Source: an uncultured Prevotellaceae bacterium (GTDB lineage Bacteria; Bacillota_I; Bacilli_A; RFN20; CAG-288). From it: a stretch of DNA of 64,000 nt. Of the stretch, positions 34,185 to 52,812 are shown in pieces (the first letter of the stretch is position 1; each line of letters opens with the position of its first letter). The stretch lies in the NCBI GenBank assembly GCA_963653505.1, contig CAVJWL010000002.1, positions 2,638 to 66,637 on the forward strand. The letters run 5' to 3'. The translations under genes were made by a program, and so were the position numbers. The notes under the pieces were generated by a model, which saw only the letters and a list, made by a program, of their open reading frames with translations, searched no databases and had not been told where the DNA came from.

Positions 34185-34298
34185 AGTTGCCTCCTAAAAA
34201 CGAATAGTATTTTAACAATAAAAAAAATACATTAATAGACTTGAAATCAAAAAAGAGTTTTCAAAAAAAATCCAAGACGGTTAAATCTTGGACATTTT

Positions 34299-35110
34299 TC
34301 ATAAATCAACAATACTCTCAAGCATGAAGACATCGATGAATTAATTATCGATAGTAAGAGAAGAATCAAAATCAACAATACTCTCAAGCAAATTGCTGAA
34401 AATAACGTAAATAAATTAGTAAGAGAAGAATCAAAATCAACAATACTCTCAAGCAATAATGACGGTCTTATACAAGGTTTTTTAGTAAGAGAAGAATCAA
34501 AATCAACAATACTCTCAAGCGAAATTGGAACGGAAAATGGATTTATTCAAGTAAGAGAAGAATCAAAATCAACAATACTCTCAAGCTTAATGACGTCTCG
34601 ATTACCTTAGGCGCTGTAAGAGAAGAATCAAAATCAACAATACTCTCAAGCATAATTTTCTTTAAAACCCGAATACAAACGTAAGAGAAGAATCAAAATC
34701 AACAATACTCTCAAGCAGTTGACTGGTGGAACTGTAGCAGGTGGTTGTAAGAGAAGAATCAAAATCAACAATACTCTCAAGCTAGTCTTCTTCTTCAGTG
34801 ATTGCGAACACAGTAAGAGAAGAATCAAAATCAACAATACTCTCAAGCATGATCATATACAAGACAACGGTCTAAAAGTAAGAGAAGAATCAAAATCAAC
34901 AATACTCTCAAGCTAATCTTCTTCTTCTGTTATCGCAAAGACAGTAAGAGAAGAATCAAAATCAACAATACTCTCAAGCAGTGCGAAAATAGCATTAAAA
35001 TTAAAGTACGTAAGAGAAGAATCAAAATCAACAATACTCTCAAGCGCCGTTGTTCGTCAAAATCACACATATTCGTAAGAGAAGAATCAAAATCAACAAT
35101 ACTCTCAAGC
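34299..35110 (-). CRISPR. Type II-A CRISPR array: 12 full 36-bp repeats plus 1 degenerate terminal repeat, 12 spacers of 29-30 bp
   Basis: Plus-strand repeat GTAAGAGAAGAATCAAAATCAACAATACTCTCAAGC starts at 34354, 34419, 34485, 34551, 34616, 34681, 34747, 34813, 34878, 34944, 35010 and 35075. A degenerate partial copy (...TCATAAATCAACAATACTCTCAAGC) lies at 34299-34323. The array is adjacent to csn2 and transcribed on the minus strand with the cas operon, so the degenerate repeat is leader-distal. Confidence 0.95.
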
Positions 35111-35159
35111 CTCAAAACATGCAGTTTTTAGCTTGTTTTTTCATTGATATAGCCAAATT

Positions 35160-35855
35160 TTAACATTTTTTGCTTTTTTCTTCAATGTGAAGCTCACATA
35201 AATCAGAATCTATTCGAATGATGAATTCTTCATCAGTTTTATAGGCTGGTATGTGGCTTGATATTATCAAAAAGAAAATTTCTTGATGTCGCATTTCAGA
35301 AATAAAATATTCAAATTCTTTTTTAGACAGATAATCACATAGATTATGAAGAATTATGACTTTAAACTTAAATACATCAACCAATATCTTTATCTTTTCG
35401 ATAAGGGTAATTAAAAAATCTTCGTTATCTCCACCATATCCAACAGAAAAAGCATTTAAAAAAGTTAACAAACTCATTTCATCATCAAATTTTAATCTTA
35501 AAGGGAAATCATAAGTGATAGATGATAAATAATCATTTATTTTATTTATCAATTCTAAATAAGTTTCATTTTCTGAAACACTTATTTCACCTGCCACTTC
35601 CTTTTGAATAGTAAGATTTAGTTTCTTTTCATCAAAGGTGATAAATGAAAGATTATCTATAAAATAAATAAACTTTGTTGCATTTAATTCTATAGCATTA
35701 TCGTATAAATGAAATGCATCAATAGAATCAGTTCCGCTTAGCAATTGAAAAATGGTATTTCGATACATAAAAGAGTTTTCGATACTTATGTAGTAAAAGA
35801 TGCATTCGCTAAACTCGATTTCTTTTTCAATGTTAGGGTGCTTTAAAACCATCAT
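35160..35855 (-). CDS. csn2: CRISPR-associated protein Csn2 (short, ~230-aa form)
   Basis: 231 aa, overlaps the cas2 stop by 4 nt, and lies between cas2 and the array. This is the canonical II-A position, and the size matches short-form Csn2. Confidence 0.8.
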   Translation of the reverse strand: MMVLKHPNIEKEIEFSECIFYYISIENSFMYRNTIFQLLSGTDSIDAFHLYDNAIELNATKFIYFIDNLSFITFDEKKLNLTIQKEVAGEISVSENETYLELINKINDYLSSITYDFPLRLKFDDEMSLLTFLNAFSVGYGGDNEDFLITLIEKIKILVDVFKFKVIILHNLCDYLSKKEFEYFISEMRHQEIFFLIISSHIPAYKTDEEFIIRIDSDLCELHIEEKSKKC

Positions 35856-36175
35856 AATTCTATATACCTTTGATCAGTATCAACAACATCAGTTTCAAAG
35901 TCACCTAAGAAATAATCGATGTTGCTAAACTGTTTTTCAGTGACAGTAATCATTGAAATCAATCCTTGTTTTGGAAGATGTGTTTTGATTGAATTAGACA
36001 AATTTTTAACAGCCGATTCATTAATCGATAATTTGATGTATATCGATTCTTGGAACATAATAAATCCTTGTTTCTTTAAGAATTTTACAAACTGTCGATA
36101 TTCTCTTCTTTGTGCAGCAGTTTCCACTGGCAAATCAAACATTAATAATGATCTCATATATCTATAATTGCTCAT
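35852..36175 (-). CDS. cas2: CRISPR-associated endoribonuclease Cas2
   Basis: 107 aa with a type II Cas2-like sequence (LLMFDLPVETAAQRREYRQFVKFLKKQGFIMFQESIYIK). Confidence 0.9.
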   Translation of the reverse strand: MSNYRYMRSLLMFDLPVETAAQRREYRQFVKFLKKQGFIMFQESIYIKLSINESAVKNLSNSIKTHLPKQGLISMITVTEKQFSNIDYFLGDFETDVVDTDQRYIEL

Positions 36176-37043
36176 TTAAAAATTCCACTATATTTATTTT
36201 TGAAACATCCAAATTATTCAAAGCATTGAACACACTATTAACAAAATTATAAATTGCATTGATTAGAATTGTTGTCTTACCATTGCAAGATATTTCCATA
36301 TTCAATACATTAGCCAATTGTTTTTTATATTCGAATTTTGTAATCATATTCTTAACAATCATATAATCAACAAATGGTCTAAATGGTTCCATCAAATCAC
36401 AACCAAAATTAAACGGATTTTCACTCCCAATATGATGAATTCCTAATGAAGGAAGATACCCAGCACATGACACCTCTCTATTCACAGCAGAAAGTAATAT
36501 TGAATACCCATAATCTAAATAGGTATTGATTTCTTCACTTCCTTTTCTTCTATCAAAATTAGAACCAAATATAGAAGCAAAATATGTTTTAGCAGCTAAT
36601 CCTTCTCTATTTGTAGTATCACCTAATTCAACTTCATTTTCATATTTTGCTAAAATGGCACAAGCATCTAATTCTTCTTTACAAGCTAGAACAAAATGCT
36701 GATTGTGAATTTTTTGTTTGATGATATTAGTCCATACCATATCTTTAGCTTCTTTTATCCAACTGATTTGTGTTTTAATTCTTTCATAAGTATTATAAGC
36801 ACCATGCTGAGGAACTAATTCTGAAAGAGGATTATGTTTTGCATCACAAAATATCACTCTAACTTTATGATTTATAAGCTCAGCAAGTAATGCAGAAGTA
36901 ATGCATACTTGCTGATTTTCAATAATCAAAATAGAAATATCGTCTAATAAGATTCTCGATTCTTTATCGCTTCTACATACAAGATAATTTAGTTGAGTTT
37001 CAAGTTTACATCTATTACTAATTTTAACTATTCTAAATCCCAT
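36162..37043 (-). CDS. cas1: CRISPR-associated endonuclease Cas1
   Basis: 293 aa with a type II Cas1-like N-terminus (GFRIVKISNRCKLETQLNYLV...VRVIFCDAKHNP). It overlaps the cas9 stop. Confidence 0.9.
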   Translation of the reverse strand: MGFRIVKISNRCKLETQLNYLVCRSDKESRILLDDISILIIENQQVCITSALLAELINHKVRVIFCDAKHNPLSELVPQHGAYNTYERIKTQISWIKEAKDMVWTNIIKQKIHNQHFVLACKEELDACAILAKYENEVELGDTTNREGLAAKTYFASIFGSNFDRRKGSEEINTYLDYGYSILLSAVNREVSCAGYLPSLGIHHIGSENPFNFGCDLMEPFRPFVDYMIVKNMITKFEYKKQLANVLNMEISCNGKTTILINAIYNFVNSVFNALNNLDVSKINIVEFLNEQL

Positions 37044-37046
37044 AAA

Positions 37047-40000
37047 TTAATCCTCTGGGACAGTGAATAAAACAAATTCTTTAAAACCAGTAGTTGATGT
37101 CTGAACAATACGAGTTCCTAAAGTCAACTTTTGATTAGTTCTTATACAACCACATTTTGCAGGCAGACCCAACAATGAAAGATTTCGTCCTTGAACACTC
37201 TTACATGATAACAAATCAATCATGGTGGAAAGAATAATCAAACAATCTTTAGTTGAAAGATTATAGAACTTTTCTTTTGCATCTTTAACCTTTATAAACA
37301 AATTCCCTAAAGCAGGTAAACAATTATAATCTGGCTTGGAATAAACCACATTTGTAATATAATCAAACAATTTAATCAATTCTTCTCTTGTAATCTTTCC
37401 TCTAGTACAATCAATATCATCTTTGCCGAATTTATCTAAAACTGATAAATCAATTTTCTCTTTTCCTGCTTGATTATTTTTTCCTAATAATTTGCTTATT
37501 TTCTTAATAATCTTTACATATTCTATAGGCATAAATAATTCGGAGTTATTGACGCAAATAATGCTACCATCAGATTTACCTCTGATTCTTAATTTTGTAA
37601 ATTTAATGCAATCACCTTTTTTATTTGGCATTTCAAGAATTGTTTCCATTAACAATTTTTCAATTAAAATTTCAGGATTTTTCAGTTTTCTAGTTTCAAC
37701 AAGATAATTTTCTAATTTCTTTTTATCATTTCCTAATCCAATTCTTATAACTTTTGGAATGAATTCAATTGAGTAATTGTGTTTGCCTTTTTTTCCATCA
37801 GATTTAACCAAAGAAACATATGGATTACTTAAATCGGAGTAACCACCATATTTGGATTCAAATCCTGGATTATTAAATGGTGCTTCCATTTTTAGTGGGA
37901 AAGAGGCGCCGCCTTCATTTGCAGAATGAATTGTCGCTTTAAAGAATCCACCATCGCCCACTTGTTCGTATAGCATATGTGTAACTAATGGATCGTTATA
38001 AGATAAATACTTTCTTACTAAATCAATAGTTCCTGTTGAATTTTCATCTTCAACATCACCTTTATATGTCATAACACCAGTTTTTGAATCTATGTATTTT
38101 TTAGCTTTCCAAATTTGAGTGTCACTCATCAATATGTACTGATCGTGTTTAAATACATGTTCAACACTGACATTTGTTTGTTCTAAGTGTTCCATCATAT
38201 ATTTAATAGCATTTGGATTACCATTGCTAAATCTCTTATAAAATACATTACCGACTACAACATTTAAATACGCATCATGAGCGTGATGGAAATTATTAAC
38301 ATCTCTTGATTTTGGAATATTAAATACTCTTCTAAATTCTGAAACTAAACCAGCTTTAGAATATATAATCTTGGATTTTTCTCCATCTACTTTCTTTAAA
38401 ACATCACATACAGCTTTGACTGATTGATTAGTAGTGACAAGTTGTCGATTGATGAAACCAGAGATTTCATCAGCACTGAGAGGTTTATTTTCTGATCTTA
38501 GAATTCTATTTATCTTCTCTTTAGGCATAAATTCCGGGAATTTAGAGGCTAAAGCTTTGATAAAATTAACAGCTTTTTTCGTAATAATTTCTCTCTTGAT
38601 TGGATAATTATCACTCTTCTTATTATTTATACTTCTTTCAACTAAGACAGTATTTATAAAACTATCATCTTTAACTTTTGCTTGTGGAATAATATGGTCG
38701 ATATCATAATCTTGTAAATTATTCAAATCTATATTTTCACCTGAATATACAGACTTTCCAAGTTGCATAAAATAAAGATACATTTTTTTACCTTTATTTT
38801 TATCTCTAAAATCATTTTCTTGTTTCAAACTAGCTTCATTTTTCAGATGTTCTAAATCGATATCTTCAAAAAGACCATTCTTAGCTGTTTTTAAGGTTTT
38901 TACAATCAAATCTTTTCTTGATACACTGCGTTTCTTTTCACGTTCTTCTCTTGTTGATTCAATAAAATAAGAATCGAAATGATCAATTTTTAAAATCTCT
39001 TTTAATTCATTTACAATCTTAACCGTTTGATAAAGAGCTCTTTTCATAACAGGAGATGTATATGTTGAAGCAATGACATCATCCATATTGGTATTTAAAT
39101 CGCCGATTTCTTCTTCAATTTGATCCATAAATGAATATTTATAAGAACCATCACTATTTTTAGTTGTGAGAATTTGCATGAAATTATCATTGGTTTGCAA
39201 CATCAAATCCATAATAGATAACTGAATAACTTCACCAGTATTAATATTTGTTTTATCGACGTATAGACCATTTAATAATTTTCTAGATAATCGAGCCCAA
39301 CCTTCAAATTTAATATTTGACAAATACTTGATTTGTGCAGGAGTTAATTTATGCTTTTTCAATCTCTTTTGAACTAATTCTTTATTTTCAAATGTTGTGA
39401 TTTCGTTGATAATCTCATCAGCTAATTCTTGCTTAGATTTATCAGTTAACAATGATTCGCCAAATGCTGCATCATTCATCATAATAATCCAAGATGATAG
39501 AGAAGCATGCATGTCAGCAGCGCTCAATTCTTTTAAATCATTCGAATCACCTGTAAAGATATCAATTTTGACCCCATATTTTCTCTTAAATGCCTCTTTG
39601 ACAGTTTTTAATGTTGGTTTATTCTTTAAATAAACTTCTCTAATGATATATTCTTTATCTTCCACTGATATAAATTGAGCATCTGATGCTCCATTTACAC
39701 ATAATCTCCATTTATTTATTTCATTAAGAAGAACGAACATTTGATTCAATAATGAACATTTAGGTAATGTAGGTTCATCAATCAAATATGTACAGCAATT
39801 TTTCAAGTTCTCCATAAATTTTTCAGCTGTCTTATCTTCGTTGATAACATCATGGAAATTCCACGGAGTTATTTTTTCATCATGTCCATCATTTCTAACA
39901 ATCCAACTATGTTTTGCCTTATCAGTTAAAGGACCAACAAAATAAGGTATTTTAAATTTTAAAATTGATTCAATTTTATATGTGTATTCATCAAGATTAT

Positions 40001-41480
40001 TAAAATCTTTATCCTTATCAGCTAAGAAAGAATAATATTTTGATTGATTTTGTAAAATTTGATGCATTTCAATCAAATTCAATTGATATGGCAAAACACC
40101 ATTTTCCTTTGAATTCTGCTTGAGTAAATATTTATTTGAGTCTATAGCATTTTTAATATCAATAAGCTTCTTTTTATCACCTTCAGCAAGAGGTACAAAA
40201 TCATCTTTCAAGCTTTGTTCTATTGGTAATATCTTTTTAATTTCTTTGTATAAAACTTCCTGATTAGTTGATTTTTCAACTCTTTCTACTCTCTTTCCAA
40301 CTTTGTTATAGCCTACATAATTTGCATAATTATTAAGTGTATTTTTACCATCAGTTAAGCATTTAAAGAACCTATTGTATTCATCTGGATTATATTTTTT
40401 AACTAATTCTTTTAATATTCTAAGTTGTTCTTTATGAGTATCATAAATTTCAACCATTGATTCTGAGATATATTTATTACCTTTTAAGAGATTTGCTAAA
40501 ATTCTCAAATCATTCAACTGTTTTAAAGATAAAATTATTTGCGTTCTAGCTTCACCAATAAGTGAAGAAACACTTGGTAAAACTTTAGTTTCAAATTCCT
40601 CAGAGGAAAAATCAATATCAATTTTTAACTCATCAGATTCTTCTAAATCAGAAAAGAGACTTGATACTTTAACTTTTTTTCCTAACATCAAATCGAAAGC
40701 TAGTTTCTTAAAGCTAGTTTTTTTGATACCATTAGCTTTGAAAATTTCAATTGTTTTGTCAAATAATTCACCAGATTTGTTTTCCTTTTTAAACAAATCA
40801 ATAAGTTGTTGTGCTTTTTCATTATCACAATTAAATGTTTCATATTTGACATTATCATCTTCTTGTTGCAAATCCTTAATAGAACCATTAATTGAATCAA
40901 AAATTCCAACTATAGTATCAGGATCATTACCAATTTTATCAATCTTACCTTCTTGAAGAAAATTACCTCTATATTTAATCATATGAGCTAACGCTAAATA
41001 TATTTCTCTAATGTCAAATTTATGTTCAGGATGTTCGAGCATTTCTTTTCTAAGATGATAAATAGTAGGATAATTTTTATAAAAATCACCATCCTTATAA
41101 TTATCATCATTAAATAATAGATTATCTTTTCTTAAAACCTCATCTCTATCTTCAAGATGAATCGCTGAATTATTAAGTCTATCAAAGAAATATGGATCAA
41201 CTTTATTCATTTCTTCTTTGAATAAATCTTGCAAAAGAACAATTCTCCATTTTCTTCTTTGAAGTCTTCTTCTATTTTCTCTAGCTGCTCTTCTTTCTGA
41301 AGCATCATTAGCACTATCAAAAAGTCTAGAACCCCAAAGATGGTTACCATAATATTTAACATTTGAACCATCATGTACTTCTCTATGTTTTTTTATGATG
41401 TTGTAATTTTGATCAGTCACACAAAAACCAACAGAATCAGTTCCGATATCTAATCCTAAATAATATTTTTTGTTTTCCAT
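37047..41480 (-). CDS. cas9: CRISPR-associated endonuclease Cas9 (type II-A), 1477 aa
   Basis: RuvC-I MENKKYYLGLDIGTDSVGF, arginine-rich bridge helix RRAARENRRRLQRRKWR, HNH DIDHIIPQAKVKDDSFINTVLVERSINNKKSD, RuvC-III HHAHDAYL. I place the start at ATG 41480, which is preceded by AAGGAG. The ORF-track start (41606) adds 42 spurious residues that overlap the tracrRNA candidate. Confidence 0.95.
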   Translation of the reverse strand: MENKKYYLGLDIGTDSVGFCVTDQNYNIIKKHREVHDGSNVKYYGNHLWGSRLFDSANDASERRAARENRRRLQRRKWRIVLLQDLFKEEMNKVDPYFFDRLNNSAIHLEDRDEVLRKDNLLFNDDNYKDGDFYKNYPTIYHLRKEMLEHPEHKFDIREIYLALAHMIKYRGNFLQEGKIDKIGNDPDTIVGIFDSINGSIKDLQQEDDNVKYETFNCDNEKAQQLIDLFKKENKSGELFDKTIEIFKANGIKKTSFKKLAFDLMLGKKVKVSSLFSDLEESDELKIDIDFSSEEFETKVLPSVSSLIGEARTQIILSLKQLNDLRILANLLKGNKYISESMVEIYDTHKEQLRILKELVKKYNPDEYNRFFKCLTDGKNTLNNYANYVGYNKVGKRVERVEKSTNQEVLYKEIKKILPIEQSLKDDFVPLAEGDKKKLIDIKNAIDSNKYLLKQNSKENGVLPYQLNLIEMHQILQNQSKYYSFLADKDKDFNNLDEYTYKIESILKFKIPYFVGPLTDKAKHSWIVRNDGHDEKITPWNFHDVINEDKTAEKFMENLKNCCTYLIDEPTLPKCSLLNQMFVLLNEINKWRLCVNGASDAQFISVEDKEYIIREVYLKNKPTLKTVKEAFKRKYGVKIDIFTGDSNDLKELSAADMHASLSSWIIMMNDAAFGESLLTDKSKQELADEIINEITTFENKELVQKRLKKHKLTPAQIKYLSNIKFEGWARLSRKLLNGLYVDKTNINTGEVIQLSIMDLMLQTNDNFMQILTTKNSDGSYKYSFMDQIEEEIGDLNTNMDDVIASTYTSPVMKRALYQTVKIVNELKEILKIDHFDSYFIESTREEREKKRSVSRKDLIVKTLKTAKNGLFEDIDLEHLKNEASLKQENDFRDKNKGKKMYLYFMQLGKSVYSGENIDLNNLQDYDIDHIIPQAKVKDDSFINTVLVERSINNKKSDNYPIKREIITKKAVNFIKALASKFPEFMPKEKINRILRSENKPLSADEISGFINRQLVTTNQSVKAVCDVLKKVDGEKSKIIYSKAGLVSEFRRVFNIPKSRDVNNFHHAHDAYLNVVVGNVFYKRFSNGNPNAIKYMMEHLEQTNVSVEHVFKHDQYILMSDTQIWKAKKYIDSKTGVMTYKGDVEDENSTGTIDLVRKYLSYNDPLVTHMLYEQVGDGGFFKATIHSANEGGASFPLKMEAPFNNPGFESKYGGYSDLSNPYVSLVKSDGKKGKHNYSIEFIPKVIRIGLGNDKKKLENYLVETRKLKNPEILIEKLLMETILEMPNKKGDCIKFTKLRIRGKSDGSIICVNNSELFMPIEYVKIIKKISKLLGKNNQAGKEKIDLSVLDKFGKDDIDCTRGKITREELIKLFDYITNVVYSKPDYNCLPALGNLFIKVKDAKEKFYNLSTKDCLIILSTMIDLLSCKSVQGRNLSLLGLPAKCGCIRTNQKLTLGTRIVQTSTTGFKEFVLFTVPED

Positions 41481-41507
41481 CTTGAAATATGCTCCTTTTG
41501 ATTGTAG

Positions 41508-41583
41508 AATAGACTTGTAAATCAACAATACAAGTTCAAGTAAACAATTGTCTAAATCCACACCTGCGTTGGCAGGTTTTTTT
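41508..41583 (+). ncRNA. candidate tracrRNA (anti-repeat + intrinsic terminator), divergent from cas9
   Basis: Plus-strand GACTTGTAAATCAACAATACAAGTTCAAGTAAACAATTGTCTAAATCCACACCTGCGTTGGCAGGTTTTTTT. AAATCAACAATAC is a perfect 13-nt complement to crRNA-repeat positions 9-21, and UCAAG pairs with repeat positions 2-6 with an SpCas9-like bulge. It ends in hairpin CCTGCgttgGCAGG plus T7. Confidence 0.55.
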
Positions 41584-41730
41584 ATTACACTATTATTATA
41601 AATCAAATTTATGCAATTTCTCCAAACTTTTATAGTTTAGTTCAAACTAGGCTAATAATTTTTTTCTAAAAAGTAACTTAAAATATTTTAAAAAAACATT
41701 TATAATTCAAAAACATTACGAGGTCATTTT

Positions 41731-44188: not shown

Positions 44189-46045
44189 ATGTTCACCAAA
44201 AAAATCGGACTTTATTTATTGAGTTTTACATTACCATTTATGATTGGTAGTTGTAATAGAAATAATGATACCAACGTAAATAAAAAATATGTAATAACCA
44301 TCGCCACCGATGAAGACATTCTAAGAAGCTCATCAACTTTTTTAAAGCAGTTTTCAACCAATCATCCAAACTACTCTCTCAATGTAAAAATCTACAATGA
44401 AGACTATCTTAAAAATTTGATCAAACATAATTCCGTTACAGAAGACATCTATTTAGTTGATGATTTATTGACCATCAATTTATCAAAAAATAATTTCGTA
44501 GATTACACCCTTAGTGAATCTTTTGGAAATTATTCTGGATATATCAAAAATTACATCAAAGCTGAAGATGAAAATATCTATTGCTTACCTGGAATTGGAT
44601 CAACATATTCTTACTGTTTAAATGTTGATTTATTTGAAACATGCAATCTTACAATTCCTTCAACAATCACCGAACTTAAAGACTTTGCTTCAAATAGTAA
44701 AAATTATGCAATTCCCTTTGGAACTTCTTTTTCAGATGAGAATTATTATTTAGATGCATTTTTCCAAATGACAATTCCGGGATTTTTCTCCAGTGTCAAA
44801 GGATCTAATCTCTTCAATGAATTTGTTAGCGGTAAAACTCAATTATCAACTTCATCATTAGCAACAACATTTGAAAATTATTTGAATAATATTTACCTTC
44901 TCACTTCAAATGAATTCTATGATGATTCAATAACATCAGAACAAAGCATTGAAAATTTCATCAATGGAAAACAATTCATACTTTCAATCAGTCCTAAATT
45001 CGATTTTGAAGAATATTATAAGAATAATAACTGTACCTTCAATTATGTCTATTATCCATTTTTAGGTTCAAAGAAAAACAATGGATGGATTTGTGCAAAG
45101 TCAAGTTTTTATTTAGCGACAAATAAAAACACCTATAAAAATAAAACTGAAGAAATCAATGAATTTGTAAAATATTATTCAAGCTTAGACGGACAACAAA
45201 AATTATTGATCGATGAATACGGAAATAAAAAGAATAATTATTTTTCATACCTATCAATGTTTGAAGCAAATGATGAGGAAAAAGATAAATACATAAAAGA
45301 GACTATTAAACAATCACATGTATATTTAGTCGACAAAATAGGTCCAACATTCGAAGAATCAGCCGAAAATATTGCTCAATATGCTAATGATGAAATTTCA
45401 ATTTCGACATTATTAGAAGATTTCGATTACAACAATCAAATCCAAATCAACTATAAAAATAATAAATATACAATCGAAGAATTGAAAAGATATTCAACAT
45501 CCTCAGAAGATGATTTAATCAATACCTTAAAAATCATCTCCTATTCAATCAAGAACAAACTATCTTTAGATACGATAATCATCGATGAAAGTTTTTTAAG
45601 ATATCCAATCCTAGATGGAACTATCTATGAAAGTGAATTGAACAGCATTTTCGATAACAAACTAGAAATGCAATATGTCAATATCAAAGGAAGTGAATTC
45701 AAAAAAATCATCGACTATAATGCAACTGTTAATGATAGTTTTTCAAAAAATGAAAGAGAAAGTTATGATATTCAGAAACTTTTCAATTTGTATGACAAAA
45801 TTTCTGTTAGAAATGTAAATCTTTCCTTTTTATCAAATGATAAATTTTTACTTTGCGGTGCTAGTTTTACAAGTGGAACACCAAAACAATACTTACTCGG
45901 AAACAAAAAGGAAATAGAAGACGATAAAACATATTATTTAGCTCTTCCTATCGAAATAATAGAGAGTAACCAATTTGAATTAGTAAAAGGAAATACATTC
46001 AATTTACTCGATGTATTTCTTGAATATTTGAGGTCAATAAGATGA
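44189..46045 (+). CDS. lipoprotein, unknown function
   Basis: 618 aa with a signal peptide and lipobox-like FMIGSC. Asn/Tyr-rich. 4-nt overlap with the downstream LRR gene. Confidence 0.45.
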   Translation: MFTKKIGLYLLSFTLPFMIGSCNRNNDTNVNKKYVITIATDEDILRSSSTFLKQFSTNHPNYSLNVKIYNEDYLKNLIKHNSVTEDIYLVDDLLTINLSKNNFVDYTLSESFGNYSGYIKNYIKAEDENIYCLPGIGSTYSYCLNVDLFETCNLTIPSTITELKDFASNSKNYAIPFGTSFSDENYYLDAFFQMTIPGFFSSVKGSNLFNEFVSGKTQLSTSSLATTFENYLNNIYLLTSNEFYDDSITSEQSIENFINGKQFILSISPKFDFEEYYKNNNCTFNYVYYPFLGSKKNNGWICAKSSFYLATNKNTYKNKTEEINEFVKYYSSLDGQQKLLIDEYGNKKNNYFSYLSMFEANDEEKDKYIKETIKQSHVYLVDKIGPTFEESAENIAQYANDEISISTLLEDFDYNNQIQINYKNNKYTIEELKRYSTSSEDDLINTLKIISYSIKNKLSLDTIIIDESFLRYPILDGTIYESELNSIFDNKLEMQYVNIKGSEFKKIIDYNATVNDSFSKNERESYDIQKLFNLYDKISVRNVNLSFLSNDKFLLCGASFTSGTPKQYLLGNKKEIEDDKTYYLALPIEIIESNQFELVKGNTFNLLDVFLEYLRSIR

Positions 46046-49000
46046 AGAATTTAACAAAGCTGATGACAATTATTTTATCGTTTTCTTTTCTACCTTTAAC
46101 TTCTTGTGAAAATAAAACGAATTCAAATAGTCAATCAATATCAAACCAAAAAATAACTGGTTATGAAATAATCAATCCCTTTAGCCAAGTATATGGAGTC
46201 GGTGAAATCATAGATTTCGATTCTATAACTTTTGAAATCAAAGATAATAATGGAAATATAACTACCATCAAAGGATTTGATAGCAGATTGAATATCGAAG
46301 GGGGCGATACAGAAAATGAAGGTAAACACACAATTAAAGTCATATACCTCAATTCAACTTATGAATTTGAATACACAGTAAAACAATTTTATGTCACTTT
46401 GAATTTCAATGGCGGAACATATGAAGGTAAGGAAGAAATCAAACTTCCTTTATACAATAAAACCTGTGATTTATCTAAGGTAATTCCAACCTATTCAAAC
46501 GAAGAAAATAAATACTTCAGCGGTTGGTTTTACAATATAGAAGCTACTGATAGAGTTACTCAATTCCAAGTTGAAAAAAACATCAAAAGCTCAACTGATA
46601 TTACAATCTATGCTGGTTATGATTTGAAGTATGATGACAAGTTCTATTACACAATCAACGAAAAAGAAAACACCTGTACCATTGTATCCATCAATTTTGA
46701 AACATATTTTGTGAATTATCTCTTCGATTCAGAATTAGTGATTCCTAAGACAATCGAAAGCTATCCAGTAACCGAAATTGGAGCTGATTTTTTCGTTCAA
46801 AAAACCATCAATGAAGATGGTACAGTCGAAGAATATGATTACGCCGATGTTATGATAGATTTGACAAAAATTTCCTTTGAAGAAGGATCTCAAGTAACAA
46901 AAATCGGAAATAGAGCATTCAGAGGACTCACATATCTAGAAGAAATAACTTTCCCAGAATCATTAGCCATCATCGGAGAAGAAGCTTTTAAAGAAACAAA
47001 TTTATCTGGAGAACTTATTTTAAATAAAAATCTTGTAAAAATCGGTAAAGGGGCTTTCAAATCTTTAAAATTAGAAAAAATATCCTTTGAAAAAGATAGC
47101 AAGATAAAAGTCATCGGTGAAGAATGCTTCAGTTATAACGAATTTTTATATTCAATCAAATTACCAGAAGGATTAGAAGAAATTAGAGAAAACGCCTTCT
47201 ATAAATGCGATGACTTATCAAGTATAAAATTGCCATCAACCCTCAAATACATTTCAGGATCTACCTTCATGTATATGGGAAGTTTAAATAAAATTGAAGT
47301 TGCTGAATCAAATCAAAATTTCACATCAATCGATGGTAACCTTTATTCAAAAGATAAACACAAATTGATCAGATATTGCTACACAAACGATGAAACTGAA
47401 TTCACAATTCCAAGTGAGGTCAATCAAATCTCTGATGCTGCTTTTGGTATTTTTGATGATTATAAAACATTAAAAAAGTTGAACATTCCCGAAGGAGTCC
47501 AATACATCGGCAATCAGGCATTTTCAGGATGCACATTCGATTTAAATCTTCCATCAACACTTGAGAGTTTTTCACTCGAAGCATTCTCAGGCTATGAAGG
47601 AAAAGAAATTAATGTCAGTACAGCCAATGAAAAATATCATTCAAAAGATGGCATCATCTATTCCCACGATTACAAAACTTTATATTTATGTCCAAAATCA
47701 TATGAAAAAAAGAATTTTGTCTTAGATGATAAAGTTGAAATCATTTCAAGAAACGCAATCTATGATTGTAAGAATATTGAAACTATCACCATATCTAAAA
47801 ATTCAGCATTGAAAAAGATATATACGAACGGATTATTATTCACAAATTTAGATAATTTAAAATTTGTTAAGATTGAAAAAAATGAACTTATCGATTTTTC
47901 GTTTGAATCATTTTTCAGTGCTACTAATGTCATCAACGAAAACTTCGAAGTAATCTTTAAAGATGAAACACATTATAATAACTTTTTAGCTAAACTCAAA
48001 TCCTTACCGCATCCAAAATATTATGATGATATCATCGACTTAGTTTATACCCACATAAATTTGGATTCTGAAGTCAAAGACAAATCTTTAACTTTAATTT
48101 CCAATGCAGTCGGCTTCACAGTAGATGAATTCAATTCTATTATCAATGAAAATTCCTTACTTGAAGTATTGAGTTTTGGAAGCGAAAATTCTAAAAATGC
48201 ATTATCATTAGTCTCTTATGTTTTAAAAGAAGATAAATATAATGAAGCAGAGAAGAAGTACGCTATAAATTTCCTAAAACGTATTTATTTTTCGATGTAT
48301 CTCAAAGCAAAAGAATCAACCTATAACATTTATTCAGCTTATGCAAATCTTAAAGCCTACTATGATAATTTTGATGCATCGATTCAAAAAGAAATAAAAG
48401 AATATTTAAACTTGATACGTGTGCTCTGCGACTTTGATAAAACCACTGAGATGAAGGAATCTATTTATCAAGAAATTTTAACCTTCCCACTTTCAAAAGA
48501 AAGCTTTGATACTGAAAAGTTCTTAGAATTGAAAAGTAAAGTTAATAAATACGAATTATTTAAAATTCCAGTTGCAAGTACTGTATATAATAGATACCAA
48601 CTTTTATATTGCAATTACAAAATTGCAAGTATAATAGATAAAAATCTAGAAGAATGTTCAGATTCAGAATTGCTCGATATCTATAATGTGATGTATAGCA
48701 CTGAAGATGATTTCATGAGTATCAGCGACTATTTAAACAGTCCCTATACTCAAACACCATATAGAAGCAAATATATTAATCGGCTTGAAGATTACAATAA
48801 TTTTATAAATAAATTCCAAACTGTAATATCTGATTTGATTGAGAAATATATCAATAAACTTGAGACCTTTGACTTCACAACTTTCAATTATGATACTTAC
48901 AACAATTTCTATTCAAACTATATCACAATAATCTACAAATACTGGTCAATATTCACTCCCCATTTCAAAAGCAACCAATATTTCTCAGTTTCTGATACAG

Positions 49001-49653
49001 AAAAGATAATCAATACAATCTGCACGAGTATCGATATCTATAATTTCAACAATAAGGATTTTACCAATATGAATGATAAAGAAATCATTCAAACCTACAA
49101 ATTATCTCAATCATTAGACCAAGTTATTTACAATAAATATGCAACCGATTATGGCTTCACCGATGATGAATATAATGTTCTCATCGATAATCTCTATGGA
49201 TTTAGTACTTATAATACAAAAAAAGACAACATTAAAACAAAATATCAACAAGTGATTCAAAAGATCGAAAACGAAATCAACAACGTTGAAATTTCTTCAT
49301 CATTATCACAAGAAATGGTCACTAATCTTTATAATCGCGTTACAATAATAGATAGTAATATAAATAAAATCACAGATTTCAGCCAAGACGCTAAACTGAA
49401 ATTCTGTTCAATTATGATTTACTACACCATTAAAAAAATCTTTGATACTTATCCAACAGTGACAAATGAGAACAAATACAGTATCAGACAAATGATATAT
49501 GGTTATTACAACATCAATGATTATACTTTCCGTATTGGAGCAAAAGGCTTCATTGATGAATTCTTGGATGGAACAATCGATGATACCTTTAACTACAACA
49601 CTACACTCATTCCAAATTACAGCCAATACGAAGAGTTATTAACAAAAATTTAG
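46042..49653 (+). CDS. BspA-type leucine-rich-repeat (LRR_5) surface lipoprotein
   Basis: 1203 aa with signal + lipobox LTSCEN. Repeated ~23-aa LRR units (IGNRAFRGLTYLEEITFPESLAIIGEEAFKETNLSGELIL...). Long C-terminal helical/Tyr-Asn-rich region. Confidence 0.7.
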   Translation: MKNLTKLMTIILSFSFLPLTSCENKTNSNSQSISNQKITGYEIINPFSQVYGVGEIIDFDSITFEIKDNNGNITTIKGFDSRLNIEGGDTENEGKHTIKVIYLNSTYEFEYTVKQFYVTLNFNGGTYEGKEEIKLPLYNKTCDLSKVIPTYSNEENKYFSGWFYNIEATDRVTQFQVEKNIKSSTDITIYAGYDLKYDDKFYYTINEKENTCTIVSINFETYFVNYLFDSELVIPKTIESYPVTEIGADFFVQKTINEDGTVEEYDYADVMIDLTKISFEEGSQVTKIGNRAFRGLTYLEEITFPESLAIIGEEAFKETNLSGELILNKNLVKIGKGAFKSLKLEKISFEKDSKIKVIGEECFSYNEFLYSIKLPEGLEEIRENAFYKCDDLSSIKLPSTLKYISGSTFMYMGSLNKIEVAESNQNFTSIDGNLYSKDKHKLIRYCYTNDETEFTIPSEVNQISDAAFGIFDDYKTLKKLNIPEGVQYIGNQAFSGCTFDLNLPSTLESFSLEAFSGYEGKEINVSTANEKYHSKDGIIYSHDYKTLYLCPKSYEKKNFVLDDKVEIISRNAIYDCKNIETITISKNSALKKIYTNGLLFTNLDNLKFVKIEKNELIDFSFESFFSATNVINENFEVIFKDETHYNNFLAKLKSLPHPKYYDDIIDLVYTHINLDSEVKDKSLTLISNAVGFTVDEFNSIINENSLLEVLSFGSENSKNALSLVSYVLKEDKYNEAEKKYAINFLKRIYFSMYLKAKESTYNIYSAYANLKAYYDNFDASIQKEIKEYLNLIRVLCDFDKTTEMKESIYQEILTFPLSKESFDTEKFLELKSKVNKYELFKIPVASTVYNRYQLLYCNYKIASIIDKNLEECSDSELLDIYNVMYSTEDDFMSISDYLNSPYTQTPYRSKYINRLEDYNNFINKFQTVISDLIEKYINKLETFDFTTFNYDTYNNFYSNYITIIYKYWSIFTPHFKSNQYFSVSDTEKIINTICTSIDIYNFNNKDFTNMNDKEIIQTYKLSQSLDQVIYNKYATDYGFTDDEYNVLIDNLYGFSTYNTKKDNIKTKYQQVIQKIENEINNVEISSSLSQEMVTNLYNRVTIIDSNINKITDFSQDAKLKFCSIMIYYTIKKIFDTYPTVTNENKYSIRQMIYGYYNINDYTFRIGAKGFIDEFLDGTIDDTFNYNTTLIPNYSQYEELLTKI

Positions 49654-49665
49654 TTCAGGAGACTT

Positions 49666-52600
49666 ATGCCTAATTCAAATACAAAAACATTCACTATCAA
49701 CAAAGCAACTTTAACTGTCATCAAATATAACGAAGAAAAAATCAAAGACATTTCCTTCGTAGATTTTTTTAGTGAAAATTTAAATCCTAAAAAACTCAAT
49801 CTAGAAGAAGATAAATACAATTATGAAATATTATCTTCCTTCATCAAAGTCGCTAGTGATAAACAATGTTATGTATTTAAGTCCAATAAAACTAAAATCA
49901 CTTACAGTTTTTACATTCTCTATACTGATGAGCCAAACATCATCAAAGTAGAAGTCAGAAAAGAAGAAAATAATATCTATACCGATGAATTATATGATTA
50001 TTTAACCGGTGTCTATTCAAGAAAATATCTCTTCGATTTGATATCAAACGAACTGAAAGAAGATAATTTGAATTCATATATCATCATGATCGACCTTGAT
50101 AATTTCAAAGGTATCAATGATAATTACGGACATTTGATTGGTGACTACTGTTTAAAAGAAATTTCCTTAAAACTAAAGAATGTCTTCCATAATTGCATCC
50201 TCGGTAGATATGGCGGCGATGAGTTTTTAGTGTACATAAAAAATGTGACTGATCTAGAACTTGAAAAACTCATAAAAAGTGCATTAAAAGTAAGCTATAC
50301 CTACAAACACGCAAACAATAAACATATCGTCACTTGTTCTTTAGGTATTTCAAAAAAGATATCTAAAAGAAAAAATATAAACGACCTTATTGAAGAAAGC
50401 GATAAAGCCTTATATCAAGCTAAAAAAAGAAAGAAAAACAGCGCCAAAATATATGAAGGTGCCATCTATTACGGCTACGAAAATAAGAAAAATAAGATCA
50501 ACAATAAAAACAAAAACGATCAAAGTGCAACTCTCTTTCAAGAAGAATTACAAAAGAAGAGAAGACATTTCACAATCAATCTCATCATCATTATGGTTTT
50601 GACAATAGCAACAATCTCCAGTTTTGATTTCATTTACAATTATAGAGTGAACGAACAAACTTCTGAAATAGCAAAAGAAAATATGTCAAGCTACTCTTCT
50701 GCTATTTCAAAACAAATATCCACAAAAATAAATGAATCATTTACAAAGCTTCAAAACAGTCAAGAACTATTGAACGAAATCAATGAATCAGAAGAAGATG
50801 CCTTATTGAATTCAATGATTCATAGTCTAAAAAAGAACACTCTTGTCAACACCCCAGGATTATTATTAGAAAATGGTGATGTATATTTTTCAGAAAATAA
50901 CATTGTAAATATCGGAAATAATTCTTTTGCAAAAAAACTTATCACTGATAAAGAAAAAGCCGTTTCAAAAATTTCTTCAACCTCAAATCAAGAGTATATT
51001 TTGATAGGATATCCATATTACAAAAATACAAGTTCGACCTATGATGAATCTAACTTAGATATTTATGGAATCATCTCTGCTATCACTCCTGATGATTTTG
51101 CCTCTTCATTATTTGAAACTATCGATGATTCTTATTATGTAACAATCATCGAAAATACTGGTATTAAAATCTGTGATAACAACTCATCAAGCGTGACATT
51201 TTTTAAGAAATATTACAATTTCTTCAATTATTTCAGTGAAAACAAATTGAATTCACAATTGAAGATTATTGATGAACAACTAGAAACAACCGAAGATAAA
51301 TGCAGTATTATAACTTTATATAATGTCAATTATTTCGTTTATTCAAAATCTATCGAAATTGAAAATTGGGATATTATATTCATCGTTCCATATACATTCA
51401 TCTTCCAACAATTTGGAAATGTCATTTTATTCTCTCTTATTTTATTCAATGCTATTTGTATTTTATTCTTATTATTTGTTATCTTCGCCTTCTCATATTT
51501 CAACAAGACCAAAAAGAAAGCTTTATTAGCAGATTATTACGATACAACCATCGATTCTATTAACCAAAAAAGATTCACACTCGATGCAGATACCATTATC
51601 AAAAATGAAAAAAAGAATGAAATCTACATCGCCTATTTGAATATAAAAAGATTTAGATATTTCTACAATACCTTTGGAAATGAAGCGACGGATATCTTAC
51701 TCATCATCTCACATTATTTCCAAGAACACTTAAAAGGTGTTGAAATGTTATCAAGAGAATATACAGATAGATTTATTCTCTTATTGCTCGGCCAAGATAG
51801 AAATACTATCTACACAAGAATCAAATTATTAGCAAATAATATCAATGAAATCGAAGACATAAAAAAATACGGACATATAAGCTTGAACATCGGTCTATAC
51901 AAAGTCGAAGATGGAAAAGGAAAAATCCACATCGCTTTAGATAGAGCTAAAAAAGCTTGTGAAGCAACTAGCCAAGGAAGTGAGAACTTCAGCATAAAAT
52001 TCTTCGATAGGAAAATGTTAGATGGTGAAGAATTAGAATCATATATCGAACAAAATCAAGAAGAAGCCCTTAGAAATGATAGATTCCAAGTATTCTACCA
52101 AGGAAAGTATTCTTTACACGATAATAAATTCGCTTCATGTGAAGCACTAGTCAGATGGAAAGATGAAGAAAAAGGATTCATCAACACTCAAAAATTCATC
52201 GATGTCTTTGAAGAAAACGGCTTTGTAATCAAACTAGATTTATTTATCTTTGAAAAAGTATTAAAAGATATCAGAGAATATATCAACCAAGGAAAAGAAC
52301 CACTACCAGTCAGTGTCAATGTATCAAGAAGACATTTTGATAATCAAAACTTCTTCTTCGAATATGAGAAATTGATGAAAAAATATGGTATCGAAGGAAA
52401 ATATATCGAATTTGAAATCACAGAATCCATCATTTTAAATAACGAATTCAATTTGACTGAAACAATAAGACAAATTCATTCAATAGGTTCGAAAGTATCA
52501 ATCGATGATTTCGGAAGTGGATTTTCTAACTTCTCAATGATCAATCATGTCAATTATGACATCTTGAAAATAGATAGAAAACTCTTATTCGGAAAGAACG

Positions 52601-52812
52601 GATTCGATGAAGATTCTCGAAAGATTTTAAAGAACATCGTCACCTTGAATAAGGATATGAATAAAGTAGTAGTCTGTGAAGGCGTTGAAAAGAAAGAAGA
52701 ATCAGATTATTTAAAATCGATAGGGTGCGATTTGATTCAAGGATATTATTATTCAAAACCACAGCCAAAAGAAGAATTCATCCAGTTGATTAAAAATACA
52801 AACAATAAATAA
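49666..52812 (+). CDS. composite c-di-GMP protein: GGDEF - 2 TM flanking extracytoplasmic sensor - degenerate GGDEF - EAL
   Basis: 1048 aa. N-terminal GGDEF with intact RYGGDEFLVY; TM helices at ~aa 300 and ~590; a second GGDEF-like domain lacking GG(D/E)EF; a C-terminal EAL domain (EALVRW..., DDFGSGFS, CEGVE). Confidence 0.85.
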   Translation: MPNSNTKTFTINKATLTVIKYNEEKIKDISFVDFFSENLNPKKLNLEEDKYNYEILSSFIKVASDKQCYVFKSNKTKITYSFYILYTDEPNIIKVEVRKEENNIYTDELYDYLTGVYSRKYLFDLISNELKEDNLNSYIIMIDLDNFKGINDNYGHLIGDYCLKEISLKLKNVFHNCILGRYGGDEFLVYIKNVTDLELEKLIKSALKVSYTYKHANNKHIVTCSLGISKKISKRKNINDLIEESDKALYQAKKRKKNSAKIYEGAIYYGYENKKNKINNKNKNDQSATLFQEELQKKRRHFTINLIIIMVLTIATISSFDFIYNYRVNEQTSEIAKENMSSYSSAISKQISTKINESFTKLQNSQELLNEINESEEDALLNSMIHSLKKNTLVNTPGLLLENGDVYFSENNIVNIGNNSFAKKLITDKEKAVSKISSTSNQEYILIGYPYYKNTSSTYDESNLDIYGIISAITPDDFASSLFETIDDSYYVTIIENTGIKICDNNSSSVTFFKKYYNFFNYFSENKLNSQLKIIDEQLETTEDKCSIITLYNVNYFVYSKSIEIENWDIIFIVPYTFIFQQFGNVILFSLILFNAICILFLLFVIFAFSYFNKTKKKALLADYYDTTIDSINQKRFTLDADTIIKNEKKNEIYIAYLNIKRFRYFYNTFGNEATDILLIISHYFQEHLKGVEMLSREYTDRFILLLLGQDRNTIYTRIKLLANNINEIEDIKKYGHISLNIGLYKVEDGKGKIHIALDRAKKACEATSQGSENFSIKFFDRKMLDGEELESYIEQNQEEALRNDRFQVFYQGKYSLHDNKFASCEALVRWKDEEKGFINTQKFIDVFEENGFVIKLDLFIFEKVLKDIREYINQGKEPLPVSVNVSRRHFDNQNFFFEYEKLMKKYGIEGKYIEFEITESIILNNEFNLTETIRQIHSIGSKVSIDDFGSGFSNFSMINHVNYDILKIDRKLLFGKNGFDEDSRKILKNIVTLNKDMNKVVVCEGVEKKEESDYLKSIGCDLIQGYYYSKPQPKEEFIQLIKNTNNK

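What the first reader, a model, noticed from the sequence alone, without database searches (positions are those of the whole stretch)
34299..41606. Complete type II-A CRISPR-Cas locus (cas9-cas1-cas2-csn2-array) with an unusually long Cas9
All four II-A genes overlap one another in a tight operon on the minus strand. They are followed by a 12-spacer array of 36-bp repeats. Cas9 is 1477 aa with intact RuvC-I/II/III and HNH catalytic residues. That is ~110 aa longer than SpCas9. The repeat (GTAAGAGAAGAATCAAAATCAACAATACTCTCAAGC) does not resemble the streptococcal GTTTTAGAGCTA... class. That suggests a divergent II-A ortholog with its own PAM and guide architecture.
Basis: partly seen in the sequence, partly recalled or inferred. 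Interest (0 to 1): 0.7.

Follow-up and report, generated by a model that had tools for sequence, protein, structure and literature searches.

The report
Ordinary type II-A CRISPR-Cas9 locus

Summary
The locus is real. On the minus strand lie cas9 (37047..41480, 1477 aa), cas1, cas2 and csn2, then a 49-nt leader and an array of 12 perfect 36-nt repeats, 12 spacers and a truncated terminal repeat. All four proteins pass curated family cut-offs, and the Cas9 catalytic residues are intact.

The two claims of unusualness fail.
- **Length:** the best 120 database relatives are all 1423-1574 aa. The +109 aa over SpCas9 comes from about 17 small insertions, not a new domain.
- **Repeat:** Transcribed, it reads GCTTGAGAG..., a member of the common GTTTGAGAG II-A class shared with the FrCas9 guide. 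It sits behind the standard TTTTGAG leader end.

It has an anti-repeat, a nexus and a terminator hairpin, and its pairing with the repeat covaries across 36 related loci.

The closest solved Cas9 is FrCas9. A 95%-identical Cas9 exists in a conspecific MAG. No protospacer was found, so the PAM is unknown.

One thing worth noting: the two strains are about 99% identical except for the PAM-interacting domain (77% aa, dS 0.47 against 0.015). That is a natural domain swap.

Verdict: a new member of a known kind, of low interest.

The parts
34270..34293 (-). Terminator-like hairpin plus T-run just after the array (end of the pre-crRNA)
   Evidence: The terminator scan finds GTCCAAGATTTAACCGTCTTGGAT followed by TTTTTTTT. 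The same sequence follows the array in the conspecific locus L081.
34303..35110 (-). CRISPR array: 12 perfect 36-nt repeats GCTTGAGAGTATTGTTGATTTTGATTCTTCTCTTAC, 12 spacers of 29-30 nt, and a truncated terminal repeat (34323..34303) that keeps exactly the tracrRNA-pairing part
   Evidence: The 13-mer AAATCAACAATAC occurs 13 times here, against 0.5 expected in the window.
35111..35159 (-). Leader of 49 nt ending in TTTTGAG directly before the first repeat. A promoter-like site (TTGAAG-17-TAAAAT, 35185..35157) overlaps the end of csn2.
   Evidence: The last three leader bases are G, A and G in 52-53 of 54 related loci, and the 7-mer is ATTTGAG, TTTTGAG or CTTTGAG in 45 of them. This matches the Group 1 II-A leader end ATTTGAG/GTTT (PMC5382924).
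35160..35855 (-). csn2 (231 aa, short form), the II-A signature gene
   Evidence: TIGR01866 91.2 bits (cut-off 35), covering 4-222 of the protein; PF09711. No PDB sequence match at E<=0.01.
35852..36175 (-). cas2 (107 aa); overlaps csn2 by 4 nt and cas1 by 14 nt
   Evidence: TIGR01573 59.2 bits; PF09827.
36162..37043 (-). cas1 (293 aa), type II Cas1
   Evidence: TIGR03639 cas1_NMENI 298.6 bits (cut-off 120).
37047..41480 (-). cas9 (1477 aa): RuvC-I/II/III, bridge helix, REC lobe, HNH and PI domains. Residues 1176-1477 (about 37050..37955) form the PI domain, which is a divergent allele relative to the conspecific strain.
   Evidence: TIGR01865 767.9 bits; five Pfam Cas9 domains. Catalytic residues conserved. 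AAAGGAG lies 10 nt before the ATG. PI mosaic shown.
41482..41510 (+). tracrRNA promoter-like site TTGAAA-17-TAGAAT; the -35 box abuts the cas9 start codon on the opposite strand
   Evidence: CAT-(C/A)-TTGA... and a -10-like box are conserved in relatives.
41517..41583 (+). tracrRNA (about 67 nt, ends inferred). Upper-stem anti-repeat 41519..41531, bulge AAGTT 41532..41536, lower stem CAAGT 41537..41541, nexus mini-stem AC/GT 41544-45 with 41550-51, terminator hairpin 41562..41577 plus T-run.
   Evidence: It holds the only copy of the anti-repeat 13-mer outside the array. The duplex with the repeat is -21.8 kcal/mol. The fused guide folds at -31.8 kcal/mol, z = -5.85. Repeat:anti-repeat covariation in 36 loci: 89% paired against 35-46% when slid. 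Nexus and hairpin covariation in 23 loci: 94% against 27-38%.
41595..41624 (-). Candidate cas9 operon promoter (TGGAGA-18-TATAAT) lying beyond the tracrRNA gene. If it is used, the cas9 5'UTR is antisense to the whole tracrRNA.
   Evidence: Consensus match only. The TATAAT is conserved in the four closest relatives but not clearly in three more distant ones. This is an inference.

Best explanation
This is a canonical, apparently functional chromosomal type II-A CRISPR-Cas adaptive immune system in an uncultured low-GC (31%) Bacilli-lineage bacterium.

**Proposed mechanism.** The components are shown; the activity is inferred from established II-A biology.
1. The array is transcribed on the minus strand from the leader next to csn2.
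2. A roughly 67-nt tracrRNA is transcribed divergently from just upstream of cas9.
3. The tracrRNA pairs with each repeat through a 13-bp upper stem, a bulge and a 5-6-bp lower stem. Host RNase III and Cas9 then process the duplex.
4. Cas9 carrying the dual RNA cuts PAM-flanked protospacers with its HNH and RuvC sites.
5. Cas1-Cas2-Csn2, with Cas9 selecting the PAM, insert new spacers at the TTTTGAG|GCTT leader-repeat junction.

The Cas9 belongs to a large clade of 1420-1570-aa II-A Cas9s from uncultured Bacilli. The nearest structurally characterised relative is FrCas9. The PAM is unknown and probably not NGG.
For: - **Genes.** All four cas genes exceed the curated cut-offs over their full length. 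The six catalytic residues and the bridge-helix arginines are conserved.
- **Array.** There are 12 perfect repeats. The truncated terminal repeat and a terminator sit at the far end, and the conserved II-A leader-end motif sits at the csn2 end.
- **tracrRNA.** It holds the single extra-array copy of the anti-repeat. It has a promoter-like site and a terminator. Intermolecular covariation with the repeat was tested in 36 loci: 116 double-change cells against 35.6 in shuffles, and 89% paired against at most 46% when slid. This includes the clade-specific C2:G pair of GCTTG/CAAGT. The nexus A-U<->G-C switch and the hairpin also covary.
- **Activity, indirect.** The conspecific strain L081 has about 99% identical flanks and an identical repeat and trailer, but shares none of its 17 spacers. 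Spacers 3 and 5 differ at 6 positions, all at codon third positions. Read by hand, both encode VFAITEEED, which suggests the same site sampled from two related invaders.
- **Context.** The neighbours are chromosomal housekeeping genes: thyA and dfr on one side, and a GNAT acetyltransferase, cysK and cysE on the other. This synteny is shared with L081, and the GNAT/cysK/cysE side also with L082, whose contig ends inside cas1.
Against: - There is no expression or activity data.
- No protospacer was found for any spacer, so there is no PAM and no identified target. Searches covered GenBank phages, IMG/VR (8 exact scans), JGI metagenomes (2 scans) and the window itself.
- Rfam's models do not recognise the tracrRNA or the repeat.
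- The tracrRNA ends and both promoters are consensus-level predictions. The promoter scan is not enriched over shuffles (57 found against 55 expected).
- The tracrRNA candidates in the related loci were picked partly by their duplex energy with the repeat. This slightly favours the pairing statistic.
- RNase III was not looked for.
Confidence: 0.92

Rival explanations
1. This is a genuinely divergent II-A variant with a new guide-RNA architecture and an unusually enlarged Cas9.
For: Cas9 is 109 aa longer than SpCas9 and only 29% identical to it. The PI region has no sequence-level match in the PDB. Rfam finds neither a tracrRNA nor a CRISPR-DR family.
Against: - The length is the norm for at least 120 cluster representatives.
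- The extra residues are about 17 scattered indels of 4-22 aa with no added domain.
- The PI fold matches FrCas9 and SpCas9.
- In the transcribed orientation the repeat is 16/20 identical to the FrCas9 guide repeat, and it belongs to a class seen in about 55 fetched loci.
- The dual RNA has the standard lower stem, bulge, upper stem, nexus and hairpin plan.
Confidence: 0.04
2. The locus is a decaying or silent relic: it is complete on paper but no longer adapts or interferes.
For: No spacer matches any sequence in the collections searched. There is no expression evidence.
Against: - All ORFs are intact, with full-length profile matches and conserved catalytic residues.
- The 12 repeats are identical.
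- Spacers have turned over completely between strains that are about 99% identical in the flanks.
- dN/dS is 0.16 in Cas9 residues 1-1175 and 0.31 in the PI domain, which indicates purifying selection.
- The lack of protospacer matches is expected for phages of an uncultured host.
Confidence: 0.04

Closest known systems
FrCas9 type II-A system of Faecalibaculum rodentium (PDB 9JWK/9JWN; PMC12926199, PMC8931148)
   Same: It is the best PDB sequence match (E 3.5e-154, query residues 2-1336). It is also the best fold match for the C-terminal and PI region (Foldseek E 1.6e-11). Its guide repeat GTTTGAGTGTCTTGTTAATT is 16/20 identical to the window repeat. Both are II-A systems from low-GC gut Firmicutes.
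   Different: FrCas9's deposited chain is 1372 aa, against 1477 aa here. The PI region is only 17-19% identical, so FrCas9's NRTA PAM cannot be transferred. The window repeat starts GCTTG, with a compensating G in the tracrRNA.
SpCas9 type II-A system of Streptococcus pyogenes
   Same: The gene order is the same: tracrRNA (divergent, upstream), cas9, cas1, cas2, csn2, leader, array. Repeats are 36 nt and spacers about 30 nt. All catalytic residues and the bridge-helix arginines are shared. The dual RNA has the same bulged repeat:anti-repeat duplex and nexus.
   Different: Protein identity is 29%, with +179/-70 residues. R1333/R1335 are not conserved. The tracrRNA has one 3' hairpin rather than two. 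The leader end is the Group 1 type (TTTTGAG), not the ACGAG type of S. pyogenes. Repeat identity is 20/36.
Uncharacterised long Cas9s of uncultured Bacilli MAGs (e.g. GCA_963640635.1 contig CAVIAS010000057.1; Bacillales bacterium UBA4682; Candidatus Enterosoma)
   Same: One is 95% identical with the same synteny, repeat and tracrRNA (L081). Others are 41-76% identical, 1423-1574 aa long, and keep the same tracrRNA position.
   Different: None has been characterised. The spacer sets differ. The PI domain of the 95% relative is only 77% identical.
Natural PI-domain swapping in Cas9 (streptococcal II-A: bioRxiv 10.1101/2021.05.01.442224; Nme1/2/3Cas9 from memory)
   Same: The N-terminal 1175 residues are near-identical, and there is a sharply bounded divergent PI domain between conspecific strains.
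   Different: Here it is seen in an uncultured Bacilli lineage. The PAMs of the two alleles are unknown.

Membership tests
Type II-A CRISPR-Cas | Cas9 effector with RuvC-I/II/III and HNH nuclease motifs, bridge helix, REC lobe and PI domain | tested here: met
   TIGR01865 767.9 bits. PF16592, PF16595, PF22702, PF13395 and PF16593 all exceed their cut-offs. D11, E841, H929, N952, H1066 and D1069 are conserved.
Type II-A CRISPR-Cas | Cas1 and Cas2 adaptation genes in the operon | tested here: met
   TIGR03639 298.6 bits; TIGR01573 59.2 bits.
Type II-A CRISPR-Cas | csn2 as the fourth, subtype-defining gene | tested here: met
   TIGR01866 91.2 bits (cut-off 35), full length; PF09711 32.4 bits (cut-off 23.7).
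Type II-A CRISPR-Cas | Array of 36-nt repeats and about 30-nt spacers downstream of csn2 on the same strand | tested here: met
   There are 12 perfect repeats plus a truncated one, and 12 spacers of 29-30 nt.
Type II-A CRISPR-Cas | tracrRNA with an anti-repeat complementary to the repeat | tested here: met
   There is a unique anti-repeat at 41519..41541 on the plus strand. It covaries with the repeat in 36 loci. A nexus and a terminator are present. Expression was not tested.
Type II-A CRISPR-Cas | Conserved leader-repeat junction (Group 1: ATTTGAG/GTTT) | tested here: met
   The window has TTTTGAG/GCTT, one substitution on each side. The last three leader bases are G, A and G in 52-53 of 54 relatives. 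The motif definition comes from PMC5382924.
Type II-A CRISPR-Cas | Interference and adaptation activity; RNase III-dependent crRNA maturation | not testable with these tools
   Support is indirect only: complete spacer turnover between near-identical strains and purifying selection.
SpCas9-type (NGG-reading, GTTTTAGAGCTA repeat) | PAM-reading R1333/R1335 and a repeat starting GTTTTAGAGCTA | tested here: not met
   The aligned residues are C1443 and C1445 (the alignment at 29% identity is uncertain in the PI domain). The repeat is 20/36 identical.
FrCas9-like GTTTGAG-repeat II-A clade | Repeat 5' part GTTTGAG(N)GT.TTGTT and closest Cas9 similarity to FrCas9 | tested here: met
   The repeat is 16/20 identical to the FrCas9 guide repeat. 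FrCas9 is the top PDB hit by sequence and by fold. The NRTA PAM cannot be tested.
Rfam tracrRNA / CRISPR-DR families | Match to a curated covariance model | tested here: not met
   There are no hits at gathering threshold in the window. There are no relevant hits at E<=1 over the array or E<=10 over the tracrRNA region.

The most novel reading that the evidence does not exclude
Strains of this one uncultured species carry interchangeable Cas9 PI-domain alleles: the first 1175 residues are 99.4% identical and the PI domain is 77% identical. This would give strain-level differences in PAM specificity while the guide RNA and the adaptation module stay the same. In addition, the cas9 mRNA leader may be fully antisense to the tracrRNA, which would allow RNase III-mediated autoregulation. 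Either point would make the locus a natural pair of PAM variants on one scaffold.
Probability: 0.35. Interest if true: 0.45.

Novelty: new member of a known kind. Interest (0 to 1): 0.22.

Why it matters
Biologically this is a textbook II-A system, so it changes nothing conceptually. Its modest value is practical.
- It adds a fully specified, uncharacterised Cas9 ortholog: protein, crRNA repeat, predicted tracrRNA and an sgRNA design. The ortholog comes from a poorly sampled clade of long Cas9s related to FrCas9.
- It comes with a natural PI-domain allele pair in two near-identical strains, which could be used to map PAM determinants.
- It is also a cautionary example. Reading a repeat on the wrong strand, or comparing length only with SpCas9, creates apparent novelty.

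Tried and rejected
**Protospacer and PAM search. All attempts failed.**
- The 12 window spacers were concatenated and searched against GenBank phages. Only chance hits came back, all at E = 6.
- The 17 spacers of L081 were searched against the same collection. Only chance hits came back, E>=2.
- Eight exact scans of IMG/VR used the PAM-proximal 22-24 nt of spacers 1, 4, 6, 8, 9, 10 and 12, plus a full-length (30-nt) degenerate pattern for spacers 3/5. All returned 0 hits.
- Two JGI metagenome scans returned 0 hits.
- A self-target search in the window at <=6 mismatches found none.
- The plasmid collection was not searched.

**Other negative results.**
- Rfam found nothing at gathering threshold over the whole window, and nothing relevant with relaxed E-values over the array and tracrRNA regions.
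- Csn2 against PDB sequences gave no hit at E<=0.01.
- The Cas9 C-terminal 388 aa against PDB sequences gave no hit at E<=1e-5. This was resolved with an AlphaFold model and Foldseek instead.

**Considered and rejected.**
- *A mobile-element-borne CRISPR:* the flanks are housekeeping genes with conserved synteny.
- *The 1519-aa ORF from TTG 41606 as the true cas9:* the homologue N-termini, the RBS and the tracrRNA gene argue for the ATG at 41480. The 1521-aa annotation of P0001 is the same over-extension.
- *A long-form tracrRNA that folds back as a natural sgRNA:* no convincing complementarity was seen by eye, and I did not pursue it.
Full report
**Observation.** The minus strand between about 34270 and 41624 carries four consecutive ORFs and a repeat array.

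| Gene | Coordinates | Length | Best family match |
|---|---|---|---|
| cas9 | 37047..41480 | 1477 aa | TIGR01865, 767.9 bits, plus five Pfam Cas9 domains |
| cas1 | 36162..37043 | 293 aa | TIGR03639, 298.6 bits |
| cas2 | 35852..36175 | 107 aa | TIGR01573, 59.2 bits |
| csn2 | 35160..35855 | 231 aa | TIGR01866, 91.2 bits |

All matches are above the curated cut-offs. The array has 12 identical 36-nt repeats (35110..34354), 12 spacers of 29-30 nt and a 21-nt truncated terminal repeat (34323..34303). A terminator-like hairpin follows at 34293..34270.

Three details in the finding need correcting.
- cas9 and cas1 are separated by 3 nt rather than overlapping. The other two junctions overlap by 14 and 4 nt.
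- 41606 is only the start of the mechanical ORF. The real start is the ATG at 41480, which has an AAAGGAG 10 nt upstream. The N-termini of the homologues fit this start; the 95% relative P0001 is annotated about 42 codons longer, which is the same over-extension.
- The quoted repeat is the reverse complement of the transcribed repeat.

**Orientation and the repeat.** Three things put the leader at the csn2 end, so the array is transcribed on the minus strand.
- The truncated repeat and the terminator lie at the far end of the array.
- The 49-nt csn2-proximal leader ends in TTTTGAG.
- The last three leader bases are G, A and G in 52-53 of 54 related loci. The 7-mer is ATTTGAG, TTTTGAG or CTTTGAG in 45 of them. 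This is the published Group 1 II-A leader end, ATTTGAG/GTTT (PMC5382924).

Read that way, the repeat is GCTTGAGAGTATTGTTGATTTTGATTCTTCTCTTAC. About 55 of the 83 fetched relatives have 36-nt repeats beginning GTTTGAGAG or a close variant such as GCTTGAGAG.

|---|---|---|
| FrCas9 guide repeat | 16/20 | 9/20 |
| S. pyogenes repeat | 20/36 | 13/36 |

The S. pyogenes repeat was recalled from memory. The claim that the repeat is unlike the known II-A classes is therefore an orientation artefact.

The 13-mer AAATCAACAATAC is the complement of repeat positions 9-21. It occurs 13 times in the array and exactly once elsewhere, at 41519..41531 on the plus strand, 39 nt upstream of the cas9 start codon. 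Only 0.5 matches are expected by chance.

It is followed by AAGTT, a CAAGT that pairs with GCTTG, a mini-hairpin AAAC-AATT-GTCT, and a terminator ACCTGCGTTGGCAGGT plus a T-run. It is preceded by a promoter-like TTGAAA-17-TAGAAT at 41482..41510, whose -35 box abuts the cas9 ATG on the other strand.

- The repeat:tracrRNA duplex is predicted at -21.8 kcal/mol.
- A fused guide folds exactly as expected, at -31.8 kcal/mol with z = -5.85.
- The same element sits antisense-upstream of cas9 in nearly all relatives examined.

I fused each locus's own repeat to its own candidate tracrRNA and counted pairs over 36 loci.
- 89.3% of cells pair, against 35-46% when the partner is slid by 1-3 columns.
- There are 116 double-change cells, against 35.6 in shuffles (0 of 500 shuffles reach the observed value).
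- 13 of 19 pairs show compensatory changes. One is the sub-clade-specific C2:G, where GCTTG/CAAGT replaces GTTTG/CAAAT.

In 23 near relatives the nexus pair switches between A-U and G-C, and all six hairpin pairs covary: 94.4% paired, against 27-38% when slid.

There is one caveat. Where a locus had several motif matches, I kept the one with the best duplex energy, which slightly favours pairing. Rfam does not recognise this tracrRNA. The architecture is the standard II-A plan of lower stem, bulge, upper stem, nexus and terminator, with a single 3' hairpin.

**Cas9: kinship and length.** The closest solved structure is FrCas9 from Faecalibaculum rodentium (9JWK; E 3.5e-154). St3Cas9 and SpCas9 follow. 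I verified my recalled SpCas9 sequence against the PDB: it matches 5F9R over 1-1368 at 3047 bits. I then aligned it to the window Cas9 using intermediates.
- Identity is 29.2%.
- 179 residues are inserted and 70 deleted.
- The insertions of 4 aa or more number about 17. The largest is 22 aa at 1127-1148 in RuvC-III. The others are in the REC lobe, the HNH region and the PI domain.
- Pfam sees only the usual five domains.

In the 5.8-billion-protein search, the best 120 hits are all 1423-1574 aa with the same domain set. They come from MAGs labelled Bacilli bacterium, Bacillales bacterium or Candidatus Enterosoma. So 1477 aa is typical for this clade and not unusual. The catalytic residues D11, E841, H929, N952, H1066 and D1069 are invariant across 24 relatives.

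**PAM.** SpCas9 R1333/R1335 align with C1443/C1445. The C-terminal 388 aa have no PDB sequence match at E<=1e-5. An AlphaFold model has mean pLDDT 76, with most 10-residue blocks of the PI part at 85-96. It matches FrCas9 best (Foldseek E 1.6e-11, 17-19% identity), then SpCas9 and St3Cas9. The fold is therefore a normal PI domain, but its specificity cannot be inferred. No protospacer was found for any spacer in any collection searched, so the PAM remains undetermined.

**Signs of activity, all indirect.** Contig CAVIAS010000057.1 of MAG GCA_963640635.1 (L081) has the same synteny, repeat, tracrRNA (one substitution) and truncated trailer. Most of the shared 11 kb is 99-100% identical at the DNA level. 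None of its 17 spacers is shared with the window.

Window spacers 3 and 5 differ at six positions, all at third codon positions. Read by hand in that frame, both encode VFAITEEED. This looks like the same site captured from two related invaders.

**Noticed: a PI-domain mosaic.** I compared the window Cas9 with the Cas9 of L081.

| Region | aa differences | dS | dN | dN/dS |
|---|---|---|---|---|
| Residues 1-1175 | 7 | 0.015 | 0.0025 | 0.16 |
| Residues 1176-1477 (PI domain) | 69 (77% identity) | 0.47 | 0.14 | 0.31 |

DNA identity drops to 80-88% in the block of about 37990..36990 and returns to 97-100% in cas1-csn2. The 30-fold jump in dS, with sharp edges, indicates that a divergent PI allele was imported by recombination rather than evolved in place by local selection. 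Natural PI swapping is already described for streptococcal Cas9s (bioRxiv 10.1101/2021.05.01.442224) and, from memory, for Nme1/2/3Cas9. It is therefore a known phenomenon, but it gives a ready-made allele pair here.

**Context.** The flanks are housekeeping genes: thyA and a dihydrofolate reductase on one side, and a GNAT acetyltransferase, cysK and cysE on the other. The locus is therefore chromosomal. A 1943-aa ProA/Hhe-like antiphage helicase lies 12 kb away.

**Verdict.** This is a complete, canonical type II-A CRISPR-Cas locus with its tracrRNA, and a new, uncharacterised member of a well-populated Cas9 clade related to FrCas9.

Noticed in passing
window 37050..37955 (cas9 residues 1176-1477) compared with L081: The PI domain is a recombinant allele. 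Cas9 residues 1-1175 are 99.4% identical to the conspecific strain (dS 0.015). The PI domain is 77% identical (dS 0.47, dN/dS 0.31), with sharp boundaries. Identity is about 94-100% in the cas9-side flank and 96-100% in cas1-csn2. This implies possible strain-level PAM differences.
   Followed up: yes
window 41482..41624: The tracrRNA promoter -35 box abuts the cas9 ATG on the opposite strand. The only good cas9-strand promoter-like site (TGGAGA-18-TATAAT, 41624..41595) lies beyond the tracrRNA terminator. The cas9 5'UTR may therefore be antisense to the entire tracrRNA. The TATAAT is conserved in the 4 closest relatives.
   Followed up: partly
window 34783..34812 and 34914..34943 (spacers 5 and 3): The two spacers are 24/30 identical in the same register. 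All six differences fall at third codon positions. Read by hand, both encode VFAITEEED. This looks like the same protospacer acquired from two related invaders.
   Followed up: partly
window 53552..59383 (+): A 1943-aa ORF resembles the anti-phage protein ProA (NF058533, 1211 bits, below the 1500 cut-off) and Hhe (530 bits). It is a second candidate defence gene, 12 kb from the CRISPR locus.
   Followed up: no
window 49666..52812 (+) and 46042..49653 (+): There is a large GGDEF-EAL c-di-GMP turnover protein of 1048 aa. Next to it is a 1203-aa protein with a leucine-rich-repeat adhesin-like segment.
   Followed up: no
L081 3782..8347 (protein P0001) and L081 10279..11249: These look like annotation artefacts in the public MAG. 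cas9 is called 1521 aa from an upstream start that runs through the tracrRNA gene. Two 'genes' of 126 and 168 aa are called inside the CRISPR array.
   Followed up: partly
L008, L009, L025, L033, L070 (genome contigs titles): Several contigs carry Cas9 genes related to this one, and where an array was detected it has GTTTGAG-type repeats. Yet the contigs sit in bins labelled Alistipes, Oscillospiraceae, Roseburia, Bacteroidaceae or Azospirillum. These are probably binning or labelling errors in one MAG series.
   Followed up: no
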